This document shows, in pieces, positions 54,098-62,430 of a stretch of 64,000 nt of DNA (position 1 is its first letter; every line of letters begins with the position of its first letter). The notes under the pieces were generated by a model, which saw nothing but the letters and a program-made list of their open reading frames with translations, had not been told where the DNA came from and did not search any database. The stretch comes from Candidatus Shapirobacteria bacterium. Lineage in GTDB: Bacteria > Patescibacteriota > Microgenomatia > UBA12405. The DNA is taken from assembly GCA_041665485.1 (NCBI GenBank), contig JBAYIT010000001.1, positions 140,270 to 204,269 on the forward strand. The letters run 5' to 3'. A program made the position numbers and the translations under genes.

Positions 54098-54128
54098 AAA
54101 CCTTAAGTGTGATATATTATCTTAGTTT

Positions 54129-54295
54129 GGGGTGATTAGCCCCACCTTCGTCCCGATAGCTATTGGGACTACGGCGGGCAAGTCAGTTAAAGTTGAGTAG
54201 TTTAACAATTTGGGTGTGGGGATACCCCACAATTAGAGTTAGAGCACTCCGACGTGACGTCGGAGGGGTCAATGGTTCGAGTAGTTTAAAAATTT
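54129..54295 (+). repeat. two degenerate tRNA-like pseudo-copies (54129-54211 and 54212-54295) in tandem upstream of tRNA-Ile
   Basis: Each copy starts with GGGTG and carries arm-like hairpins plus a T-arm-like GGGGTCAATGGTTCGAGT, but cannot close an acceptor stem; direct repeat GAGTAGTTTAA[A/C]AATTTGGGTG at both junctions. Confidence 0.4.
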
Positions 54296-54369
54296 GGGTG
54301 ATTAGCTCAGTTGGTTAGAGCACCGTCCTGATAAGACGGGGGTCAATAGTTCGAGTCTATTATCACCCA
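54296..54369 (+). tRNA. tRNA-Ile (anticodon GAT)
   Basis: 74-nt cloverleaf folded by hand: acceptor GGGTGAT/ATCACCC, D-arm GCTC/GAGC, anticodon arm CCGTC-CTGATAA-GACGG, T-arm AATAG-TTCGAGT-CTATT; CCA is not encoded. Confidence 0.85.
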
Positions 54370-54374
54370 CACAA

Positions 54375-54650
54375 ATGCTAGGATATGTATATATTCTCGT
54401 GAGTGAGAAAAATGGTAGATATTATGTTGGTAGTAGCTTTGACCCAAAGAAGAGATTGGTTGAATTTCATAATTGTGGCAAAGTGAAGGCAACTAAATAT
54501 ATGACTCCATGGAAAATTGTTTTTGTCCAACAATATGAAGATGTTTCTATGGCTAGGAAAATCGAGCGTAGAATAAAAACCCTTAAATCAAGGAAAATCA
54601 TTGAAAAGATAATTGAGGATGGCAAATGTAATATAATAACTAGTGGTTAG
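54375..54650 (+). CDS. small stand-alone GIY-YIG nuclease-domain protein
   Basis: 91 aa; GYVYILVSEKNGRYYVGSS...RLVEFHN is the GIY-YIG core; lies 5 nt after tRNA-Ile and its last three codons run into a tRNA-derived fragment. Confidence 0.75.
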   Translation: MLGYVYILVSEKNGRYYVGSSFDPKKRLVEFHNCGKVKATKYMTPWKIVFVQQYEDVSMARKIERRIKTLKSRKIIEKIIEDGKCNIITSG

Positions 54651-54703
54651 AGCACTCCGACGTGACGTCGGAGGGGTCAATAGTTCGAGTCTATTATCAC
54701 CCA
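54643..54703 (+). repeat. partial tRNA 3' copy (D-loop to 3' end) with a replaced anticodon hairpin
   Basis: GGTTAGAGCAC + CTCCGACG-TGA-CGTCGGAG + GGGGTC-AATAG-TTCGAGT-CTATT-ATCACCC-A; T-arm and acceptor 3' strand are identical to tRNA-Ile; 35 nt (54647-54681) are identical to 54239-54273. Confidence 0.5.
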
Positions 54704-54828
54704 CAAGCAATTTTGCTCAAGCAAAATTGAAATTTTCAATTTCCAATAACCAATTTACAAAATAAAAATGAGAAAAATTGATTTTATAAAAACATTGGGG
54801 ATAGTAATGGCGGTGGTGTTGGTGGTAT

Positions 54829-56100
54829 TTGGGGGAATTGAAAATTTGTGGAGAACGATTAAAAGCATTAAGTATTAAATTAAGAATCAAGAACTTAGAG
54901 CTAAGAACTAAGATTTTTTTCTTTGTAATTTTGATCCTAGTGGTGATGGGAGGGGCGGGGTGGTGGTTTATGAGAGGAGAGGATGGGGGAATTTTGTCAC
55001 CTTTGGGAATGAAGAAACAAGAGAATGGCCTTAAAATAGTTGGTTTTTTGCCGACTTGGATGGTGGGCAAAACAAAAATCTATGGGGAAGAACTGGACAG
55101 GTTGGTATTTTTGGGAGTAGAAGTAAATGAAAAGGGAGATTTGGTTTGGGATGTTCAGGGAAAAAAGATAAATAATCCTGACTACCTTAAAATAAAGGAG
55201 GAGATTAAAAAGACAGGGGGCGAAAATATTTTGGGAGTGAAGTTGTTTAAAGACGAAAAACTGAAAAAGTTGATGGCTAGCAGTGAGGCGAGGGGGAGGC
55301 TAGTGGAGCAAGTAATGGCAGCAGTAGAGGCAGGTAATTTTGACGGGGTTAACCTTGATTTTGAGTATCAATATGACCCGCTGGCGGTGACGGAGGAAGT
55401 TTTTTTGGGATTAATTGCCGAAATGAGGGGGGCGGGGATTGAAAACATAAGCCTGGACGTGTTTGCTAACACAATTATTAAGAGCGGATATGAAAGACTC
55501 TTCAAGCTGGTGGGGGCGGTTGATGAGGTATTGGTGATGGCTTATGATTTTCACGCCAGTGGAAGTAGTAGCGCCGGGCCGGTGGCGCCATTGGGGGCAC
55601 CAACGGGTGAGAGAAGTATTTTGGAAGTGTTGGAGAAAATTGAAAGTAGCGGGGTGGATAAAAACAAAATAACGATTGCTTTGCCTTTATATGGCTACCA
55701 ATGGAAGACGGAAACGACCGAACTCGGATCACCGGCAACAGATTATGTGGCAATGTTGACTTATGCAAAAATGGGGGAATTTTTGCAGAGTGACGAGTTT
55801 TTAGGTAGAGTTAATCAAAATTGGGACGAATTGAGCGCCACGCCATGGATATGGCTCAAAAAGCAGGAGACAGTGAGCTGGAAAGAGAGGGTTAAAGTGG
55901 GAAAAGTGTGGAAAACGGTGGCAAAATCGAAACAGGTTGAGGTGATACATCAGGTTTATTACGAAGACCAGAGGAGCCTAATGGAAAAAATTAAGGCAAT
56001 TCGAGAGGCAGGAATAAATAGTATTGGCTTTTGGGCACTAGGGTATGAGGGAGAGACGAATTTGCTTGGTACAATAAGAAATGATCAAAACGATAATTGA
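54829..56100 (+). CDS. glycoside hydrolase family 18 (chitinase-like) protein with N-terminal membrane anchor
   Basis: GH18 catalytic motif FDGVNLDFEY (DxxDxDxE). Confidence 0.7.
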   Translation: MGELKICGERLKALSIKLRIKNLELRTKIFFFVILILVVMGGAGWWFMRGEDGGILSPLGMKKQENGLKIVGFLPTWMVGKTKIYGEELDRLVFLGVEVNEKGDLVWDVQGKKINNPDYLKIKEEIKKTGGENILGVKLFKDEKLKKLMASSEARGRLVEQVMAAVEAGNFDGVNLDFEYQYDPLAVTEEVFLGLIAEMRGAGIENISLDVFANTIIKSGYERLFKLVGAVDEVLVMAYDFHASGSSSAGPVAPLGAPTGERSILEVLEKIESSGVDKNKITIALPLYGYQWKTETTELGSPATDYVAMLTYAKMGEFLQSDEFLGRVNQNWDELSATPWIWLKKQETVSWKERVKVGKVWKTVAKSKQVEVIHQVYYEDQRSLMEKIKAIREAGINSIGFWALGYEGETNLLGTIRNDQNDN

Positions 56101-56752
56101 TTTCTTTTTGCATATTGATAAAAATTTGGCTTGGATAATTGGAGCCTTTGGGGGGTGGAGCTATGCCATATTATTTTTGGTTATTTTTGTGGAGACAGGG
56201 TTGGTGATAATGCCGTTTTTACCGGGTGATTCTTTGCTTTTTGCGGCGGGAGCCTTAACGGCTTCTTTGGGGGTATTTAATATATTTTTGTTGTGGGGAT
56301 TAATGATAATGGCGGCATTTGTTGGGGACACAGTCAATTATTGGATAGGACATACTATTGGGTCGAAAGCTTTTGACCCAAATTACAGGTTAAAAGTTTT
56401 CAGTTACGAGTTACGAGTTTCGAAAATACTGAAACCAGAATATTTAATCAAAGCGCAGGGATTTTATGATAAACATGGGGGGAAGGCGATAATACTGGCC
56501 CGTTTTGTGCCGATTGTGCGAACTTTTGCCCCATTTGTGGCCGGGGTGAGCAAAATGAGCTACCCTAAGTTTTTATCGTTTAATTTGGTGGGAGGAGCCC
56601 TGTGGGTGTCGGCGTTTGTGTGGGGAGGGTACTTGTTTGGAAATATACCATTGGTTAAGGATAATTTTCACTATTCAGTGGTTTTGATTGTGTTAATTTC
56701 GGTAGTGCCGATTGGGGTGGAGTGGGTGAAAAGTAGGAGGGCAAGAATTTAA
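56081..56752 (+). CDS. DedA-family (VTT domain) membrane protein
   Basis: LVIFVETGLVIMPFLPGDSLLFAAGAL signature; in-frame AGTTACGA repeat at 56395-56420. Confidence 0.8.
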   Translation: MIKTIIDFFLHIDKNLAWIIGAFGGWSYAILFLVIFVETGLVIMPFLPGDSLLFAAGALTASLGVFNIFLLWGLMIMAAFVGDTVNYWIGHTIGSKAFDPNYRLKVFSYELRVSKILKPEYLIKAQGFYDKHGGKAIILARFVPIVRTFAPFVAGVSKMSYPKFLSFNLVGGALWVSAFVWGGYLFGNIPLVKDNFHYSVVLIVLISVVPIGVEWVKSRRARI

Positions 56753-56816
56753 GAATCTGCGAATCTAGAATTTAGAAATAAGACTAAAGATTGGTGTAAA
56801 ATAGAGAAAATAAAAT

Positions 56817-57992
56817 ATGGTTGATAAAGGGGTAATTGAAACTGTTAGAGGACATGATGGTGTATTTCGACCGATTGGTGTGGTAGCCGAGAGTGGGGGA
56901 GTGGGAGAAGAGGAGTCGAGGTTGGCAAGGAGGGGTGCGTTTGTGGAAAGGTTAGTCGGAGAGAGATGTGGGAATCGAAGACCATATGGTGAAGAAGCCA
57001 TGCGGTTATTTAATTTAAGGAGGGAGTGGGAGGATAATTGTAAGAAGACTGGCTGTGTTGAACAATGGCGGTGGGGAGAGCCAAGATATTTACGGGCGGC
57101 GGTTGGCGACGGGGAGGCAGGAGAAGAAGGGGGTTGGCTGGATGAAGAGTATAAAAGGTATTTAACAGGGGTGGTTGGTGTAGAGCTAGTGGGGGAGAAA
57201 AAAGTTGTTTCTGGAAAACCATGGGAGGTGGCGGAGGCTCCGATTGACGGGCCTCGTTGGCGGAGAGTAGCAGAGCAGTTGGAACCGATTTTAAACCATT
57301 CATCCGGTGGAAGTAACTGTGTTCCAGAAGTAGCAACTTGGTGGGTGGCTTTAGCGAGAGGTGTGGACGGGACTGATAATTTGGAGAGATTAAGGAATGA
57401 GGTAATGGCAGATGTAGCTAGGGTTAGGCAAGATAGAAGCTTTACAAGGGGAAGATCTGATTGGTTGGATTCCAAATATCTTTATCGTGGATTAAGTGCA
57501 ACTATTGACGACAGTGGAGTTGGTCCGGGCAGACTGGGAGATACGATTCCGTATATAGATTTTTTGGGAACTAATGGTTTTTCTTGGCAAGAGCCGCAGG
57601 TTAAACAATTGGAAAGAGTAGTTAATTCGGCGGACGCTGGTAGGGTCATTTTGTCAAATTTTGCTGGGACACAAGAGCGATTTTGGGGACATCCAGTGAT
57701 AGCTTTAAATGTAATTAGTGAAATCGACGCTAGAGTAGTGATAACAAAGCCGGAGAATGAGTTTTTCAGAGAGGCAAAGTTTGGCCAACAGAGGGCACCG
57801 AGAGTAGGAGAAAAATGGACGTTAATTGGGGCACATTATGCGATGATAATAGGTTGGGACGAGAAACAGTTTATGGTGTTAGATCCACAGACGGGGATGG
57901 TTTTGGGAGTAAACAGAGATCTCTTTAACCAGAGACTGAAAGCTAGCGACTTAGTTTTGGATGGAGCAATTACGATTGATACAAGTAGATAG
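56817..57992 (+). CDS. hypothetical protein (soluble, Arg/Glu/Gly-rich)
   Basis: 391 aa with no recognisable domain. Confidence 0.45.
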   Translation: MVDKGVIETVRGHDGVFRPIGVVAESGGVGEEESRLARRGAFVERLVGERCGNRRPYGEEAMRLFNLRREWEDNCKKTGCVEQWRWGEPRYLRAAVGDGEAGEEGGWLDEEYKRYLTGVVGVELVGEKKVVSGKPWEVAEAPIDGPRWRRVAEQLEPILNHSSGGSNCVPEVATWWVALARGVDGTDNLERLRNEVMADVARVRQDRSFTRGRSDWLDSKYLYRGLSATIDDSGVGPGRLGDTIPYIDFLGTNGFSWQEPQVKQLERVVNSADAGRVILSNFAGTQERFWGHPVIALNVISEIDARVVITKPENEFFREAKFGQQRAPRVGEKWTLIGAHYAMIIGWDEKQFMVLDPQTGMVLGVNRDLFNQRLKASDLVLDGAITIDTSR

Positions 57993-58133
57993 AAAATAGC
58001 GAGTGATTTGGTGGGTTGATTATATTGAGATAATTAGATAGAATAGGTGCACTTGATGCTAGAAGGAGAAATAAAGTTTAACGGAATGGGGAGGGGGAGT
58101 ATCGCGTAGATTTTGTTTGGGAGAATGGAATTG

Positions 58134-58166
58134 GCCGAAGGCATCAAGCTTTCGGCATTTTTTTTG
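58134..58166 (+). terminator. Rho-independent terminator
   Basis: Hairpin GCCGAAGGCATCAAGCTTTCGGC followed by ATTTTTTTTG. Confidence 0.6.
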
Positions 58167-58246
58167 CCGAAAATCGTACATTAAATCAGGCTTGGGCCCG
58201 CCTACGTTGCACTACGGCGAGGTAAACCTGTGGCTTAGTCTAATGA

Positions 58247-58320
58247 TGGGCCCATGGCTCAGTTGGCTAGAGCACCTCATTTGCAATGAGGAGGTCAGGA
58301 GTTCGAGCCTCCTTGGGTCC
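58247..58320 (+). tRNA. tRNA-Ala (anticodon TGC)
   Basis: 74-nt cloverleaf: acceptor GGGCCCA/TGGGTCC with one G-U pair, anticodon arm CCTCA-TTTGCAA-TGAGG, T-arm AGGAG-TTCGAGC-CTCCT; G3:U70 Ala identity pair present. Confidence 0.85.
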
Positions 58321-58506
58321 ACAACAAGTTAAAAGTCCGAAAAGTGGAAAGTTAAAAAGTAGTTAGAAACAGAGGAAGTCAAACTTCCTCTGAACTGACT
58401 ACAACAGTACATTAACAATCTGTTGAATCGAAATTCCGAAGACACTTTGTCCGTGTCTTTGGAAAACTATTATTATCGAAACTAATAGGCCGGTAATAAT
58501 AGAGTT

Positions 58507-58527
58507 TTAGCGACTAAATTGAGTTGC
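58507..58527 (+). other. 5' half of the 23S processing stem (perfect 21-nt inverted repeat with 62109-62129)
   Basis: TTAGCGACTAAATTGAGTTGC versus GCAACTCAATTTAGTCGCTAA flanking the 23S gene; this is the classical RNase III processing-stem arrangement. Confidence 0.6.
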
Positions 58528-58699
58528 TAAATTGTTGATAAATTTTAATAAAGCAAATGGTGGATGCCTAGGTAGTCGAGACCGATGAAGGACGCAGAAG
58601 GCGGCGAAACAGATTGGGGAGTTGCCAACAAACGGTGATCCAATCAAATCCGAATGGAGAAATCCCGGCCCGAGCAATCGGGCTGAGCCACTGTTTCAC

Positions 58700-58835
58700 G
58701 GAGATAACAAATTACAAATCTACAAGTTCCAAGCAAATCACAAATTCAAAATTACAAGTTCCAGATGTTATATTTGAAATTTGTTTTTTGGAAATTGTTT
58801 GGAAATTGTTTTTTGTGAATTTGGAATTTCTGTGA
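58700..58835 (+). other. ORF-less intervening sequence / expansion in the 23S 5' domain (helix 9-10 region), built from AATTTCCAAACAAAT-type word repeats
   Basis: About 130 nt inserted between ...CACGGAGATAAC and GTGAAGCGGTGGC... where E. coli has a short helix; the two halves are roughly self-complementary. Confidence 0.5.
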
Positions 58836-59161
58836 AGCGGTGGCGGGTAAGCCGGGGAAGTGAAACATCTCAGTACCCGGAGGAAAAGAAATCGTATTCC
58901 GTCGTAAGACGGACATAGGAGATTCCGTTAGTAGCGGTGAGCGAAAACGGAAAAGCCCAAACCTGTCGCAAGACAGGGGTTGTAGGGTTTGGTATAAGGC
59001 ATTGAAAATCCAGAAAAACGTCCTGGAATGGGCGGCCAAAGAGGGTGAGAGCCCCGTATTTAAATGATAAGTAAATGCTGACCAAATACCTGAGTACTAC
59101 GGGACACGCGAAATGCCGTAGGAACCTGGGGAGACCAATCTCCAAGGCTAAATATCTCGAC

Positions 59162-59201
<40 letters not shown>

Positions 59202-59921
59202 ATACTGCAGATCGCAGGGTGAAATATATCTGAAACCATTTGCTAACAAACAGACAAAGCTCCGTAAGGGGTGATGTCGTGCCTATTGAAGAATGAGCCC
59301 GCGAGTGTTCTCAATTACCAAGTTTAATCCCCGATGGGGTGGAGGCGTAGCGAAAGCAAGTCTGAATAAGGCGATTAGGTAATTGGGGATGACCCGAAGC
59401 CACTTGAGCTAACCCTGGGCAGGGTGAACTTCGATGAAAATCGAAGGGAGGCCCGTACGGATCAGAGCTGCAAATCTGTCCGATGACTTGGGGTTAGGGG
59501 TAATATGCCAATCGAAAGTGGGAATAGCTGGCTCTCTCCGAAATATATATAGGTATAGCGCTTGGTGTTCAACGACGGGGGTAGAGCTACTGGATGAATG
59601 TTTTCAGCGCAAGCTGAGGCATTTAACCAAACTCCGAATACCGTTGTTCTAAGCCAGGCAGTCAGTCCGACCGGGCTAAGCTGGCCGGGCAAAAGGGGAA
59701 GACCCCAGACTCTCATCTAAGGTCTCTAAATCTATGCTAAGTGGGAAAGGTAGTGATTTTCCTCAGACAGGCAGGAGGTTGGCTCAGAAGCAGCCATCCT
59801 TTAAAGAAAGCGTAACAGCTCACTGTTCGATTTGTCCCGACGCAAGTTGGGACGGAGGAAGATTGCGCCGAAAATGTAACGAGGCTAAAGCATAGTACCG
59901 AAGGTGGAGAACTCGTCCTTT

Positions 59922-60062
59922 GGACGAGAAATTTCAATAATCAATAACCAATTTCCAAACAATAACCAATAACCAATTTCCAAATTTACAAACTTTTGTT
60001 TGTTATTTGAAATTTGTTATTTGTTTGGAACTTGTAGGTTTGTAATTTGGAATTTCCCGTCC
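59922..60062 (+). other. ORF-less intervening sequence at the helix-45 position of 23S, a known IVS site
   Basis: GGACGAGAAATTT...AATTTCCCGTCC form a terminal stem around about 115 nt of A/T-rich word repeats, inserted before the conserved CAGAGGATGGGTTGGTAGG. Confidence 0.55.
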
Positions 60063-61417
60063 AGAGGATGGGTTGGTAGGAGAGCGTTGTGGAGGCGGTG
60101 AAGGTTGGCTGTAAGGCTGGCTGGAGCGTCCACAAGTGAGAATGCGGGCATGAGTAGCGTAACTCTGGTGAGAATCCAGAGCGCCGAATATCCAAGGTTT
60201 CCTCAGCTACGTTGTTCGACTGAGGGTTAGGCGATCCTAACACGAACCTCGTATAATGCGGGGGTAGTGGACGGATAACCGGTTAATATTCCGGTCCTTT
60301 CTTGAATTCGTTTTAAGTTGGGGCATGACGACAAATGAAAGACTAGGTCTTGCAGTGAAATTGCAGGATTTAAGTATTAAGTTAGAAGGGGATTGGGAAA
60401 TCCGCCTCTTCGTTATAAAATGAAATACGAGTAGAAGTCTGGCGAAAGCCGGGCAATCTGGTTACGTTTATTTGTCCAAGAAAATTGTCGCAAATAGAAT
60501 TCAGGAAATTCGTACCAAAACCGACACTGGTGGATAGGTCGAGTAGACCAAGGCGATTGGAAGACAGATGGTTAAGGAACTTGGCAAATCAACTGGGCGT
60601 AAGTTTTACAAGATGCCCTGCCCCGATTAGTATCGGGGCTACAACAAAAGAATGCACGGCGACTGTTTACCACAAACACAGGTCCATGCAAACCCGTAAG
60701 GGGAAGTATATGGGCTGAAACCTGACCGGTGCCAGAAGGTTAAGAAGGCGGGTGATATCGCAAGATTGAGCCTGTTTTATAAGCCCTGGTGAACGTCAGC
60801 AGTAACTCTAACTGTTCTAAGGTAGCAAAGTCCTTTGTCGGGTAAGTTCCGACGCGTATGAAAGGTTTAACGACTGTGCAACTGTCTTAACTGTCTATCC
60901 AGCGAAATTGAAAGAGCGGTGAAGATGCCGTTTAGTTACTACAGGACAAAAAGACCCCATGAAGCTTTACTGGATCTTTACATTGATGAGAACTTAATGA
61001 TTGTCGAGCGTAGGAGGGAGCCTTCGGGCGTCAATGGAACACCTCCCTTTGTTAATTTCAAGTCTCACCTACTCCAATGGATGTTGGAGGGGAACCGTGT
61101 ATGGTTGCTAGTTTGCCTGGGGCAGGCACCTGCAAAAAAATAACGCGGGTACACAAAGGTCACCTTGGTCCGGCTAGAAATCGGACTATAAGTGCAAAAG
61201 CAAAAGGTGGCTTGACTGCGAGACATACTTGTCGAGGTCCCCGATTTATCGGGGGCATTTCAACCCAGTTTACTGTGTTGGAATCAGGGTCGAAAGACGG
61301 TTTTAGTGATCCTCGTGACCCACTGGTATGGGCACGGGCTTACTGGATAAAAGCTACTCTGGGGATAACAGGCTAGTCGCGTCCGATAGTTCATATTGAC
61401 GACGCGGTTCGGCACCT

Positions 61418-61699
61418 TAGCCAATTAAGGCTTATCGGGGTGGGCGGAAGTAATTCCGTTAGTCTGTTTTTTTTAATATCTAGCTCATAACGGTGAACGC
61501 TATATGCCAACACCGTGGGAAGTCCTCCGATGTGTTTCGGAGTGACCCCGTAACGACTTGTTGTTCGACGTCACGTCGAACACGGAGTCTTCTTTTTATT
61601 AAGGAGGCTAACACGCTAGCTCCTACTCTATCCGATGTTTATCGGATGACAAGAGGATGAAGGTATAGTCTAAAAATAACCTATTTATAGGTGAAATTG
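61418..61699 (+). mobile_element. candidate ORF-less group I intron in 23S, inserted after the U of GGCACCU (E. coli position ~2449)
   Basis: 282 nt interrupt ...CGGCACCT|...|CGATGTCGAC; the 5' exon ends in U and the insert ends in G; GGGGTG near the 5' end can pair with the exon CACCU (P1 with a U-G pair); AAGGTATAGTC resembles the conserved S/P7-3' element. Confidence 0.45.
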
Positions 61700-62240
61700 C
61701 GATGTCGACTTGGCGCATCCTGGCCTTGAAGAAGAGGCCAAGGGTTGGTCTGTTCGCCCATTAAAGCGCTGCGTTAGTTGGGTTCAGAGCGTCGCGAGAC
61801 AGCTCGGTCTCTATCCGTAGTAACCGTTCGATTCTTGAAGGGATTCACCTACAGTACGAGAGGACCTAGGTGAGGAAACCTCTAGTGGGCCAGTTGTTCC
61901 GTCAGGGGCAACGCTGGGTAGCTACGTTTCTATTTAGATAACTGCTGAAAGCATCTCAAGCAGGAAGCTGACCCTAAGATTAGGAATCGTTTTCCGAGCA
62001 ATCGGGATTAAGATCACCGGGAGACTACCGGTTTAATACTTTGGCGGTGGAAGGTCCGTAAGGATTTAAGCTTACCAAAGGATGGATCAAATAAATTTTT
62101 CAACAATTGCAACTCAATTTAGTCGCTAATATAGCGAAATCCTTGTTATGTTTTTTGAGTTCTGGCCAATGTGTGACCACGTTGGAGGAACTCAAAATTC
62201 CATAACTTCGGATTTTTTATTTTTAATAATTTGGTTTTTG

Positions 62241-62362
62241 GGTTCCGGTCATTGGAGCGATGTGGTACCACCTTTTCCCATTCCGAACAGAGAAGTGAAA
62301 CGCATCAGCGCTGACAATAGCTTCGGGGCAACTTGGAGTGAAAATAGGTCGTGACCGGAACC
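62241..62362 (+). rRNA. rrf: 5S ribosomal RNA
   Basis: Terminal helix GGTTCCGGTCA/TGACCGGAACC and conserved CCCATTCCGAACAGAGAAGT...GGTAGTG-like core. Confidence 0.85.
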
Positions 62363-62430
62363 GAGAAACCATGCGGGGAAGATTCAACAGATTGCATTTA
62401 TTCATTTATTTAGGGTAAACAATCCCGTTT

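What the first reader, a model, noticed from the sequence alone, without database searches (positions are those of the whole stretch)
61418..61699. ORF-less 282-nt insertion in domain V of 23S rRNA at a classical group I intron site
The conserved GGCACCU|CGAUGUCGG stretch of the peptidyl-transferase region is interrupted by 282 nt. The upstream exon ends in U and the insert ends in G (omega-G). A GGGGUG element near the insert's 5' end can form P1 with the exon. An AAGGUAUAGUC element matches the conserved P7-3' (S) consensus. No ORF is encoded, so there is no homing endonuclease. Self-splicing introns in rRNA are a hallmark of CPR lineages but are usually ORF-containing; a minimal intron is notable. 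The insert contains the GTTCGACGTCACGTCGAAC hairpin shared with the tRNA-associated repeats.
Basis: partly seen in the sequence, partly recalled or inferred. Interest (0 to 1): 0.55.

Follow-up and report, generated by a model that had tools for sequence, protein, structure and literature searches.

The report
ORF-less group I intron in 23S rRNA
The 282-base insert in the catalytic centre of the 23S rRNA gene is a genuine but ordinary self-splicing-type (group I) intron without a homing-endonuclease gene, one of a large family found at the same site in many uncultured bacteria.

Summary
Window 61418-61699 (282 nt, + strand) interrupts the 23S rRNA exactly between E. coli U2500 and C2501 (site L2500). 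It has every sequence and structure element of a group I intron. P1 carries a U.G pair at the 5' splice site and lies next to P10 on one guide sequence. P2 to P9 are present, two extra hairpins (P7.1 and P7.2) sit between P7 and P3', and the last base is G.

Rfam's generic model scores it only 21.6 bits against a threshold of 50. However, a profile built from 35 other ORF-less L2500 introns finds it at E = 1.5e-30. On that family alignment the proposed helices are 96.9% paired, and 24 pairs show compensatory changes.

One scan of bacterial genomes returned 68 further L2500 introns, mostly from Patescibacteria/CPR. Forty-two lack an ORF, one has a truncated ORF, and 25 carry a LAGLIDADG_2 gene in P6. 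Published counts for CPR 23S rRNA are 222 ORF-less and 211 ORF-containing group I introns.

The only peculiarities are a P5 reduced to about 2 bp and a non-GNRA L9 loop. Splicing itself was not tested. Verdict: a new member of a known kind, of low interest.

The parts
61413..61417 (+). Last 5 nt of the 5' exon (CACCU, E. coli 2496-2500); 5' strand of P1. U61417 pairs with G61438 as the U.G wobble at the 5' splice site.
   Evidence: Invariant across 36 family members (helix 1).
61418..61699 (+). The intron itself: 282 nt with no ORF.
61419..61432 (+). P1 extension hairpin, AGCC-AAUUAA-GGCU.
   Evidence: Present in the minimum-free-energy fold. Specific to this intron; other members have different small hairpins here.
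61433..61442 (+). Internal guide sequence UAUCG|GGGUG. UAUCG pairs with the 3' exon CGAUG (P10), and GGGUG pairs with the 5' exon CACCU (P1).
   Evidence: Conserved in the family, 93-98% paired (helices 1-3).
61444..61459 (+). P2: 6 bp closed by a GUAA (GNRA) tetraloop, L2.
   Evidence: All 6 pairs show double compensatory changes in the family (helix 4).
61480..61484 (+). P3 5' strand, CUAGC.
   Evidence: Pairs with 61615-61619. All 5 pairs covary in the family: CUAGC/GCUAG, UCGGC/GCCGA, UUGGC/GCCAA, CCGGC/GCCGG (helix 5).
61490..61516 (+). P4 (ACGGUG/CACCGU) enclosing J4/5 (AAC), a vestigial P5 (GC-UAUAU-GC) and J5/4 (CAA).
   Evidence: P4 is 99% paired in the family (helix 6). The P5 segment is 12 nt here against 20-80 nt in the other 67 members whose anchors could be placed.
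61517..61549 (+). P6 (GGG/CCC), P6a (GUC/GAC) and P6b (CUCCGA/UCGGAG). In the long family members the LAGLIDADG ORF is inserted in this arm.
   Evidence: 100% paired in the family (helix 7).
61550..61558 (+). J6/7 (GUAAC) and the P7 5' strand (GACU). G61555-C61670 is the inferred guanosine-binding pair, next to the bulged C61554.
   Evidence: Invariant in 36 of 36 sequences (helix 8). The guanosine-binding role is inferred from general knowledge of group I introns.
61562..61582 (+). P7.1 hairpin: 9 bp with a UCA loop. It contains the palindrome GTTCGACGTCACGTCGAAC.
   Evidence: A first hairpin at this position is predicted in 35 of 36 family members.
61586..61609 (+). P7.2 hairpin: AGUCUUCUU / AAGGAGGCU, 9 bp.
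   Evidence: A second hairpin is predicted in 35 of 36 family members.
61615..61619 (+). P3 3' strand, GCUAG.
   Evidence: helix 5.
61621..61657 (+). P8: outer stem UCCU/AGGA plus inner stem AUCCGAU-GUUU-AUCGGAU.
   Evidence: Three of the four outer pairs show double changes in the family (helix 9).
61658..61670 (+). J8/7 (UGAAGGUAU) and the P7 3' strand (AGUC).
   Evidence: (Rfam alignment, posterior probability '*'), helix 8. This motif was part of my search pattern, so its conservation in the family was imposed by the search.
61675..61699 (+). Possible P9.0 (AAU/AUU); P9 (ACCUA-UUUA-UAGGU, 61679-61692); terminal G61699.
   Evidence: P9 is displaced by 3 nt from the family register, and its loop is UUUA where 63 of 69 have GNRA. 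P9.0 is inferred.
61700..61704 (+). First 5 nt of the 3' exon (CGAUG, E. coli 2501-2505); 3' strand of P10.
   Evidence: helices 2-3.

Best explanation
Window 61418-61699 is an ORF-less group I intron of the IA-like architecture, meaning it has extra helices P7.1 and P7.2 between P7 and P3'. It is inserted at site L2500 of the 23S rRNA gene, in the peptidyl-transferase loop.

Inferred mechanism:
1. After transcription the intron folds into the P1-P10 structure.
2. The guide sequence UAUCG|GGGUG holds the 5' exon end (CACCU, with a U.G wobble at the cleavage site) and the 3' exon start (CGAUG) side by side.
3. A free guanosine bound at the P7 G-C pair attacks after U61417.
4. The terminal G61699 then takes the same site, and the freed 3'-OH of U61417 attacks after G61699.
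5. The exons are joined to restore GGCACCU-CGAUGUCG, and the intron is released.

The intron descends from a mobile family whose full-length members carry a LAGLIDADG_2 homing endonuclease gene in P6. This copy has lost the gene, or never had it, so it can no longer home on its own.

Shown here: the position, all the sequence and structure elements, family membership and family covariation. Inferred: the catalysis itself.
For: - Position: the insertion falls exactly between E. coli U2500 and C2501.
- Rfam: RF00028 aligns end to end (model positions 1-253) at 61424-61694, E = 0.0025 in a 501-nt search.
- Fold: the minimum-free-energy fold recovers P1, P2, P4, P5, P6, P7.1, P8 and P9, with z = -4.5. 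My hand-drawn nested structure scores -89.3 kcal/mol against an MFE of -99.8.
- Family: 68 further introns at the same site in other bacteria share the core motifs.
- Profile test: a profile of 35 of them, excluding the window and the exons, hits 61433-61672 at 99.8 bits, E = 1.5e-30. It is the only significant hit in the 64 kb.
- Covariation: on the 36-sequence alignment my structure is 96.9% paired, against 36-44% when the 3' partners are slid by 1-3 columns. There are 24 pairs and 266 cells with double changes, against 23-54 cells when slid. The covariation score is 0.426 against 0.147 for shuffles, and 0 of 500 shuffles reach it.
- Core integrity: the window differs from the family consensus at only 6 of 100 conserved columns. 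None of the six lies in the catalytic core elements P3, P7, J4/5, J6/7 or J8/7.
- Curated threshold: family member L010 passes Rfam's gathering score for Intron_gpI with 77.5 bits.
- Long members: they encode LAGLIDADG_2 (PF03161, E ~1e-43) inside P6.
- Independent assemblies: the identical intron occurs in two metagenome assemblies.
- Necessity (inference from established ribosome knowledge): U2500 and C2501 lie in the peptidyl-transferase centre, so 282 extra nucleotides there must be removed.
Against: - The intron does not reach Rfam's gathering score (21.6 against 50 bits).
- P5 is reduced to about 2 bp, the shortest of the 68 sequences whose P5 segment could be measured. L9 is UUUA rather than the GNRA loop seen in 63 of 69. 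A tertiary contact normally used for folding has probably been lost, which could weaken self-splicing.
- No RNA data were available, so splicing was not observed.
- P7 and the P1/P10 guide are almost invariant in the family, so they carry no covariation evidence. The J8/7-P7 3' motif and the 3' exon were fixed by my search pattern.
- No close relative of this particular intron was found. The best match is 83% over 66 nt, so selection on this lineage's own peculiar features could not be tested.
Confidence: 0.9

Rival explanations
1. A crippled group I intron. It is a family member by descent, but loss of P5 and of the L9 tetraloop has left it unable to self-splice efficiently. It would then depend on a host or trans-acting protein, remain in the rRNA as reported for the Simkania L1931 intron, or be cut out to leave a fragmented 23S.
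For: - The P5 segment is 12 nt against 20-80 nt in the other 67 measured members.
- L9 is UUUA while 63 of 69 have GNRA, and P9 is displaced by 3 nt.
- No maturase or endonuclease ORF is present.
- An unspliced bacterial 23S group I intron has a precedent, cited as reference 28 in PMC11270868.
Against: - The catalytic core is intact: 94 of 100 conserved columns match the family, and the deviations lie outside P3, P7, J4/5, J6/7 and J8/7.
- P1, P10 and the terminal G are all in place.
- L2 (GUAA), P8, P7.1 and P7.2 are retained and can provide other stabilising contacts.
- The site is in the peptidyl-transferase centre, where a retained 282-nt insert should be lethal (inference).
- The identical sequence is kept in two samples.
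Confidence: 0.08
2. Not an intron but an rRNA expansion or RNase III-type intervening sequence, like the other insertions in this 23S gene.
For: The same gene has several other insertions, including two long hairpin-type ones at 58695-58844 and 59920-60068. The Rfam group I score is below threshold.
Against: - The insert does not form a single long hairpin. It has the complex multi-helix group I topology.
- It matches the L2500 intron family at E = 1.5e-30, with strong covariation for the group I helices.
- Members of that family carry homing endonuclease genes.
- The site is a conserved single-stranded part of the peptidyl-transferase loop, not the tip of a surface helix.
Confidence: 0.01
3. 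An assembly artefact or chimera placing foreign intron sequence in the 23S gene.
For: rRNA operons are often misassembled in metagenomes.
Against: - The identical 282 nt lie in the identical context in two assemblies from different archives and samples, with 2 mismatches in 11.5 kb.
- The junctions are exactly at the canonical site.
- The guide sequence is complementary to this gene's own exons.
Confidence: 0.01

Closest known systems
Group I introns in 23S rRNA genes of CPR/Patescibacteria (Tsurumaki et al., J Bacteriol 2024, PMC11270868; first noted by Brown et al. 2015, cited from my own knowledge)
   Same: Same gene and same region: the paper reports these introns clustered around the peptidyl-transferase centre in domain V. 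ORF-less and LAGLIDADG-containing versions occur at the same site with highly similar non-ORF parts, and degenerate ORFs occur. The paper counts 222 ORF-less against 211 ORF-containing introns in 23S. My scan found the same pattern at L2500.
   Different: The text I could read does not give the numeric coordinates of its sites 23IS6-14, so I could not confirm that L2500 is one of its numbered sites. This particular sequence has no close relative among the 68 recovered; the best match is 83% over 66 nt.
Chloroplast rrl group I intron at site 2500 (for example Floydiella terrestris Ft.rrl.6, 381 bp, no ORF; PMC2997540)
   Same: Same insertion site by E. coli numbering, also ORF-less and of similar size.
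   Different: That intron is classified IB in the paper. I had no sequence of it to compare, so homology is untested. The host is an organelle, not a bacterium.
Cyanobacterial L2593 LAGLIDADG introns (Synechococcus C9 and S. lividus C1, Thermosynechococcus; PMC1995217)
   Same: Bacterial 23S domain V introns described as having a short P5, a roughly 65-nt P7.1/P7.2 extension and a short P2. This is the same overall architecture as here.
   Different: A different site (2593 against 2500). They carry a LAGLIDADG ORF, and sequence relationship was not tested.
Subgroup IA phage introns with P7.1/P7.2 (Twort orf142-I2, T4 td); Azoarcus-type L2-P8 and L9-P5 tetraloop contacts (from my own knowledge)
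   Same: Two hairpins lie between P7 and P3', and GNRA loops cap P2 and, in the family, P9.
   Different: The host gene and sequence differ. The window's intron lacks the GNRA L9 and has only a vestigial P5.
Simkania negevensis L1931 unspliced intron; Coxiella burnetii L1917/L1951 introns (references 28 and 29 in PMC11270868)
   Same: Bacterial 23S group I introns. The title of the Coxiella paper says one element lacks the canonical terminal G, which parallels the 15 of 69 L2500 family members that end in A.
   Different: The sites differ. The window's intron has a canonical terminal G.

Membership tests
Group I intron (Rfam RF00028, Intron_gpI) | Score at or above Rfam's curated gathering threshold (50 bits). 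| tested here: not met
   21.6 bits, E = 0.0025 in a 501-nt search, with full-length alignment to model positions 1-253. Not listed at gathering threshold. Of four clear family members, only L010, which lacks P7.1/P7.2, passes with 77.5 bits; L070, L047 and L029 do not. The generic model under-detects this architecture.
Group I intron | P1 formed by the 5' exon end and an internal guide sequence, with a U.G wobble at the 5' splice site. | tested here: met
   CACCU (61413-17) pairs with GGGUG (61438-42), with U61417.G61438. Present in the MFE fold and conserved in 36 of 36.
Group I intron | Terminal guanosine, and P10 between the guide sequence and the 3' exon. | tested here: met
   G61699. UAUCG (61433-37) pairs with CGAUG (61700-04), directly adjacent to the P1 part of the guide.
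Group I intron | Conserved core helices P3-P8 in the canonical order, with the P3/P7 pseudoknot, supported by comparative data. | tested here: met
   P2, P3, P4, P6, P7, P8 and P9 are 96.9% paired on 36 sequences. Twenty-four pairs have double changes, and both the slid and shuffled controls are far lower. P7 itself is invariant, so it is uninformative.
Group I intron | Guanosine-dependent self-splicing. | not testable with these tools
   This needs an in vitro splicing assay or RNA-seq.
Bacterial L2500 23S intron family (defined here from 68 genome-contig loci) | Insertion between E. coli U2500 and C2501, plus the shared core motifs GGGGTG, AACGGTGAA, ACCGTGGGAAG, CCCGTAACGACT and GAAGRTATAGTC. 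| tested here: met
   nhmmer with a leave-one-out family profile gives 99.8 bits, E = 1.5e-30.
Subgroup IA-like architecture | Two extra helices (P7.1 and P7.2) between the 5' strand of P7 and the 3' strand of P3. | tested here: met
   The 56-nt segment folds into two 9-bp hairpins. The same two-hairpin fold is predicted in 35 of 36 family members despite unrelated sequences. Formal assignment to IA1, IA2 or IA3 was not made, because no reference subgroup library was available.
Mobile (homing) group I intron | An intron-encoded homing endonuclease. | tested here: not met
   No ORF exceeds 55 aa and none has a Pfam hit. P6, where relatives carry a LAGLIDADG_2 gene of about 190-220 aa, is only 33 nt here.
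RNase III-type intervening sequence or expansion segment | A single extended hairpin replacing the tip of a surface helix. | tested here: not met
   The fold is multi-helix, and the site is in the peptidyl-transferase loop strand.

The most novel reading that the evidence does not exclude
This copy is a naturally stripped-down ribozyme that lost the L9 GNRA tetraloop and its presumed docking helix P5 together. It would then no longer fold or splice on its own. Removal from the peptidyl-transferase centre would depend on a host factor. In the extreme case the insert would be retained, or excised without ligation to give a 23S split at U2500/C2501.
Probability: 0.07. Interest if true: 0.55.

Novelty: new member of a known kind. 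Interest (0 to 1): 0.15.

Why it matters
This finding matters little beyond correct annotation.

- It shows that the 23S gene of this uncultured bacterium is interrupted in the peptidyl-transferase loop by a standard ORF-less group I intron, so the mature rRNA should be modelled without 61418-61699.
- Rfam's generic group I model misses most members of this P7.1/P7.2-bearing L2500 family. Three of the four relatives tested fall below threshold, and so does this intron. Rfam-based censuses of rRNA introns in CPR bacteria may therefore undercount them.
- The family sample (43 ORF-less including this one, 1 with a truncated ORF, 25 with an intact LAGLIDADG gene) illustrates the gain-and-decay cycle of homing endonuclease genes.
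- The paired loss of P5 and of the GNRA L9 loop in this copy is a small natural experiment on a tetraloop contact. It is not a surprise to specialists.

Tried and rejected
- Rfam at gathering threshold over the whole window gave no group I hit. Only the permissive search found it, at 21.6 bits.
- A blastn search of the intron against phage genomes gave only chance matches of about 30 nt.
- I scanned metagenome contigs with the 19-nt P7.1 palindrome, hoping for close relatives or for a dispersed palindromic element. All 52 hits lie in high-GC coding DNA (an FDVTSN-type codon string), and none matches the intron or this 23S.
- I considered that the P7.1 palindrome is a mobile or recognition element shared with the tRNA-Ile-like repeats next to a GIY-YIG ORF. 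Only a 13-nt core is shared. There are no further copies in the 9.5 kb beyond the window, and GACGTC is not enriched. The tRNA-side hairpin is explained as a mutated anticodon arm. I judged the resemblance probably coincidental.
- Literature searches for 'L2500' with 'group I intron', and for 'site 2500' with 'rrl', found nothing. The site-2500 precedent came from a table in PMC2997540.
- The organism could not be identified. The 23S exons are only 70-77% identical to the best recovered loci. The named lineages among the best matches were Roizmanbacteria, Gottesmanbacteria, Levyibacteriota and WWE3, which suggests Patescibacteria but does not prove it.
- One multi-locus Rfam call failed internally and was repeated on fewer loci.
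- I did not build a covariance model. I used nhmmer and the count of structure pairs instead.

Full report
**The observation**

Rfam places a bacterial 23S rRNA at window 58537-62103 on the + strand (2143 bits), followed by a 5S rRNA at 62244-62360. The sequence reads ...UUCGGCACCU(61417), then 282 nt, then C(61700)GAUGUCGAC.... Pairwise alignment with an E. coli 23S gives a 282-nt insertion at exactly 61418-61699. In the 2904-nt rrlH of E. coli MG1655, the U of GGCACCU is position 2500 and the C of CGAUG is 2501. The insert therefore lies at site L2500, in the central loop of domain V next to A2503, G2505 and U2506. The boundaries are unambiguous, because only removal of 61418-61699 restores GGCACCU-CGAUG.

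The insert ends in G61699. GGGGUG lies at 61437-61442 and AAGGUAUAGUC at 61660-61670. The longest overlapping ORFs are 55, 44 and 40 aa, and none has a Pfam hit even at E <= 10. A neighbouring S1-domain protein led to two public contigs. One is ENA ERZ27249449 (411,674 bp, identical to the window). The other is JGI 3300037810 (2 mismatches in 11.5 kb). Both contain the identical insert, so the insert is real.

**Anatomy** (coordinates verified)

- P1: the exon CACCU (61413-17) pairs with GGGUG (61438-42), with the U61417.G61438 wobble at the 5' splice site.
- P10: immediately 5' of the P1 guide, UAUCG (61433-37) is complementary to the first five exon bases CGAUG (61700-04). One continuous guide sequence therefore aligns both exons, as in classical group I introns.
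- The P1 loop holds a small hairpin (61419-32).
- P2 (61444-59) is capped by a GUAA tetraloop.
- P3 is CUAGC (61480-84) paired with GCUAG (61615-19).
- P4 is ACGGUG/CACCGU (61490-95 with 61511-16). It encloses J4/5 (AAC), a vestigial P5 (GC-UAUAU-GC) and J5/4 (CAA).
- P6, P6a and P6b occupy 61517-49.
- J6/7 (GUAAC) leads into the P7 5' strand GACU (61555-58), which pairs with AGUC (61667-70).
- Two 9-bp hairpins lie between P7 and P3': P7.1 at 61562-82 and P7.2 at 61586-609.
- P8 is 61621-57, J8/7 is UGAAGGUAU, and P9 is ACCUA-UUUA-UAGGU (61679-92).
- A possible 3-bp P9.0 and the terminal G61699 complete the intron.

An unconstrained fold of 61405-61712 recovers P1, the P1 extension, P2, P4, P5, P6, P7.1, P8 and P9, with z = -4.5 against shuffles. 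The nested part of my hand structure costs -89.3 kcal/mol, against an MFE of -99.8.

**Database model**

Rfam's Intron_gpI model aligns end to end (model 1-253, window 61424-61694). It scores only 21.6 bits against a gathering score of 50, with E = 0.0025 in a 501-nt search, and the hit is absent at gathering threshold. On its own this is weak evidence.

**Related sequences**

I made one scan of one-genome-per-species bacterial contigs with GAAGRTATAGTC, a gap of 15-45 nt, then CGATGTCG. After requiring 23S sequence downstream and GGCACCU upstream, 68 loci carry an insertion at the same site.

Sixty-seven of these, plus the window, have the same core motifs in the same order. The motifs are GGGGTG/GGGGCG, AACGGTGAA, ACCGTGGGAAG, CCCGTAACGACT and the J8/7-P7 element.

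The lengths fall into two classes. Including the window, 43 are 247-552 nt with no ORF, and 25 are 796-891 nt. One, of 687 nt, has a truncated ORF. In the long class the P6 arm is swollen to about 550-570 nt. It encodes a protein of about 190-220 aa that matches Pfam LAGLIDADG_2 (E = 1e-43 and 2e-36 for the two tested).

By record title, about 60% of the hosts are Patescibacteria/CPR: Davies-, Gottesman-, Roizman-, Levyi-, Uhr-, Nomura- and Saccharibacteria, Paceibacterota, WWE3 and others. The rest include Eremiobacterota, a Coxiella endosymbiont, Acidobacteriota, Planctomycetota and Actinomycetota MAGs.

**Tests of membership and structure**

- A DNA profile of the 35 other ORF-less members up to 420 nt, with exons and the window left out, was run over the whole 64 kb with nhmmer. 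It gives one significant hit, 61433-61672, at 99.8 bits and E = 1.5e-30.
- On the 36-sequence MAFFT alignment I counted my structure: P1, P10, P2, P3, P4, P6, P6a, P7, the outer P8 stem and P9, 47 pairs in all.
- 96.9% of cells form standard pairs, against 36-44% when the 3' partners are slid by 1-3 columns.
- 24 pairs and 266 cells show changes on both sides, against 23-54 cells when slid.
- The covariation score is 0.426 against 0.147 for shuffles, and 0 of 500 shuffles reach it.
- P2, P3, P8 and P9 covary throughout. For example, P3 occurs as CUAGC/GCUAG, UCGGC/GCCGA, UUGGC/GCCAA and CCGGC/GCCGG.
- P7 and the P1/P10 guide are invariant, so they are uninformative. The J8/7-P7 3' strand and the 3' exon were fixed by my search pattern.
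- The segment between P7 and P3' folds into exactly two hairpins in 35 of 36 members despite unrelated sequences. This is the P7.1/P7.2 feature of subgroup IA, named here from my own knowledge of the Michel-Westhof scheme.
- The one member without these hairpins, L010, is also the only one of four tested that passes Rfam's gathering score, with 77.5 bits. The window's low Rfam score is therefore a property of the generic model, not of this intron.

**State of this copy**

Of 100 alignment columns conserved at 85% or more in the other 35 sequences, the window differs at 6. Four are in P9, one turns a G.U into G-C in P4, and one is an exon base. Other members differ at 0-10 columns. The catalytic core is therefore intact.

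Two things set this copy apart. Its P5 segment is 12 nt, the shortest of the 68 sequences measured (the others are 20-80 nt). Its L9 is UUUA, whereas 63 of 69 have a GNRA loop, and its P9 lies 3 nt out of the family register. In well-studied small group I introns, a GNRA L9 docks on P5 and a GNRA L2 docks on P8. That statement is from my own knowledge and was not tested here. On that basis the window's intron seems to have lost both partners of one contact while keeping L2 (GUAA), P8, P7.1 and P7.2. I read this as a tolerated simplification. It leaves a small chance that splicing is impaired or depends on a protein.

**Mechanism**

The mechanism is inferred, not shown. It is the standard two-step transesterification. 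An external guanosine bound at the P7 G61555-C61670 pair attacks after U61417. G61699 then occupies the same site, and the 5' exon attacks after it. P1 and P10 hold the exons together, and the reaction restores the peptidyl-transferase loop. Without an endonuclease gene, this copy cannot home by itself.

**Comparison with what is known**

- PMC11270868 surveyed CPR rRNA genes. By Rfam, 433 of 968 23S insertions were group I introns, 211 with annotated ORFs and 222 without. They cluster around the peptidyl-transferase centre. ORF-less and LAGLIDADG-containing forms occur at the same sites with very similar non-ORF parts, and degenerate ORFs occur. This is the situation found here, so an ORF-less intron is not unusual.
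- Site 2500 is a documented group I site in chloroplast rrl (Floydiella Ft.rrl.6, 381 bp, no ORF, classed IB), and another intron sits at site 2511 (PMC2997540).
- Cyanobacterial L2593 introns are described with a short P5, a P7.1/P7.2 extension and a short P2 (PMC1995217).
- I found no paper that names L2500 in bacteria. The CPR paper's numbered sites are given only in figures I could not read.

**The hairpin claim**

GTTCGACGTCACGTCGAAC occurs once in the window. Its 13-nt core CGACGTSACGTCG also occurs at 54250 and 54658, in two partial tRNA-Ile-like copies that flank tRNA-Ile and a GIY-YIG ORF. There the hairpin replaces the anticodon arm and differs from it by compensatory changes and a shortened loop, so it is most simply a mutated anticodon arm. 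In the intron, the hairpin is helix P7.1, which has a different sequence in every member.

The 19-mer occurs 52 times in public metagenome contigs, always in unrelated high-GC coding DNA. There are no more copies in the next 9.5 kb of the source contig. I regard the shared core as probably coincidental, though a 13-nt match is unexpected by simple chance (0 expected in shuffles).

**Verdict**

The insert is a genuine ORF-less group I intron at L2500. It belongs to a widespread, mostly CPR, bacterial family with LAGLIDADG-bearing relatives. It is a new member of a known kind and of low interest (0.15). Splicing remains to be shown experimentally.

Noticed in passing
window 54120-54710: tRNA-Ile(GAT) at 54296-54370 is surrounded by partial tRNA-Ile-like copies at 54238-54282 and 54646-54703, plus a 5' fragment near 54127. 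In these copies the anticodon arm is replaced by the palindrome CTCCGACGTGACGTCGGAG. A 91-aa GIY-YIG ORF (PF01541) lies between the tRNA and the downstream copy (about 54375-54650). This looks like a GIY-YIG element that has duplicated part of its tRNA target.
   Followed up: partly
window 58695-58844 and 59920-60068: The two largest other insertions in the 23S gene lie at roughly E. coli positions 170-190 and 1170-1180 (my estimate from the alignment). Each is an AT-rich long hairpin (z = -6.1 and -6.7), and they share about 60% of positions. That similarity explains the 116-nt, 78% inverted repeat between them. They resemble RNase III-type intervening sequences.
   Followed up: partly
window 54296-58537: No 16S rRNA gene is present anywhere in the 64-kb window, although tRNA-Ile, tRNA-Ala, 23S and 5S are. 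tRNA-Ile and tRNA-Ala are separated by 3.9 kb carrying protein genes: a glycosyl hydrolase 18, a VTT-domain protein and an unknown 391-aa protein.
   Followed up: no
L009, L021, L026, L027, L029, L030, L063, L066, L072, L076, L084, L090, L103, L109 and L119 (3' intron ends): Fifteen of the 69 L2500 introns end in A instead of the canonical G immediately before CGAUGUCG, for example ...AUGUA|CGAUG. Their guide sequence still pairs with CGAU, so the 3' splice site seems unchanged. A Coxiella 23S intron lacking the canonical terminal G is on record (title of reference 29 in PMC11270868).
   Followed up: partly
L030 and L044 (just after CGATGTCGGCTCA); L025, L084 and L099 (after ...GGAGAA): Several 23S genes with an L2500 intron have a second insertion only about 11-13 nt downstream, or about 35 nt downstream, leaving very short exons. 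The first position is near the chloroplast group I site 2511 listed in PMC2997540.
   Followed up: no
L070, L047 and L029 against L010: Rfam's Intron_gpI model at its gathering score detects only the L2500 family member that lacks P7.1/P7.2 (L010, 77.5 bits). It misses three clear members that have these helices. Rfam-based counts of bacterial rRNA group I introns are probably underestimates.
   Followed up: partly
window 58507-58527 with 62109-62129: A perfect 21-nt inverted repeat flanks the 23S gene, as expected for the RNase III processing stem of the precursor. A similar 20-nt repeat flanks the 5S gene (62232-62251 with 62352-62371).
   Followed up: no
L174 12756-14318 (about 2.3-3.8 kb beyond the window's 3' end): The source contig continues with a large serine recombinase (Resolvase and Recombinase domains), a KAP NTPase and HTH proteins. 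This may be an integrated element downstream of the rRNA operon.
   Followed up: no
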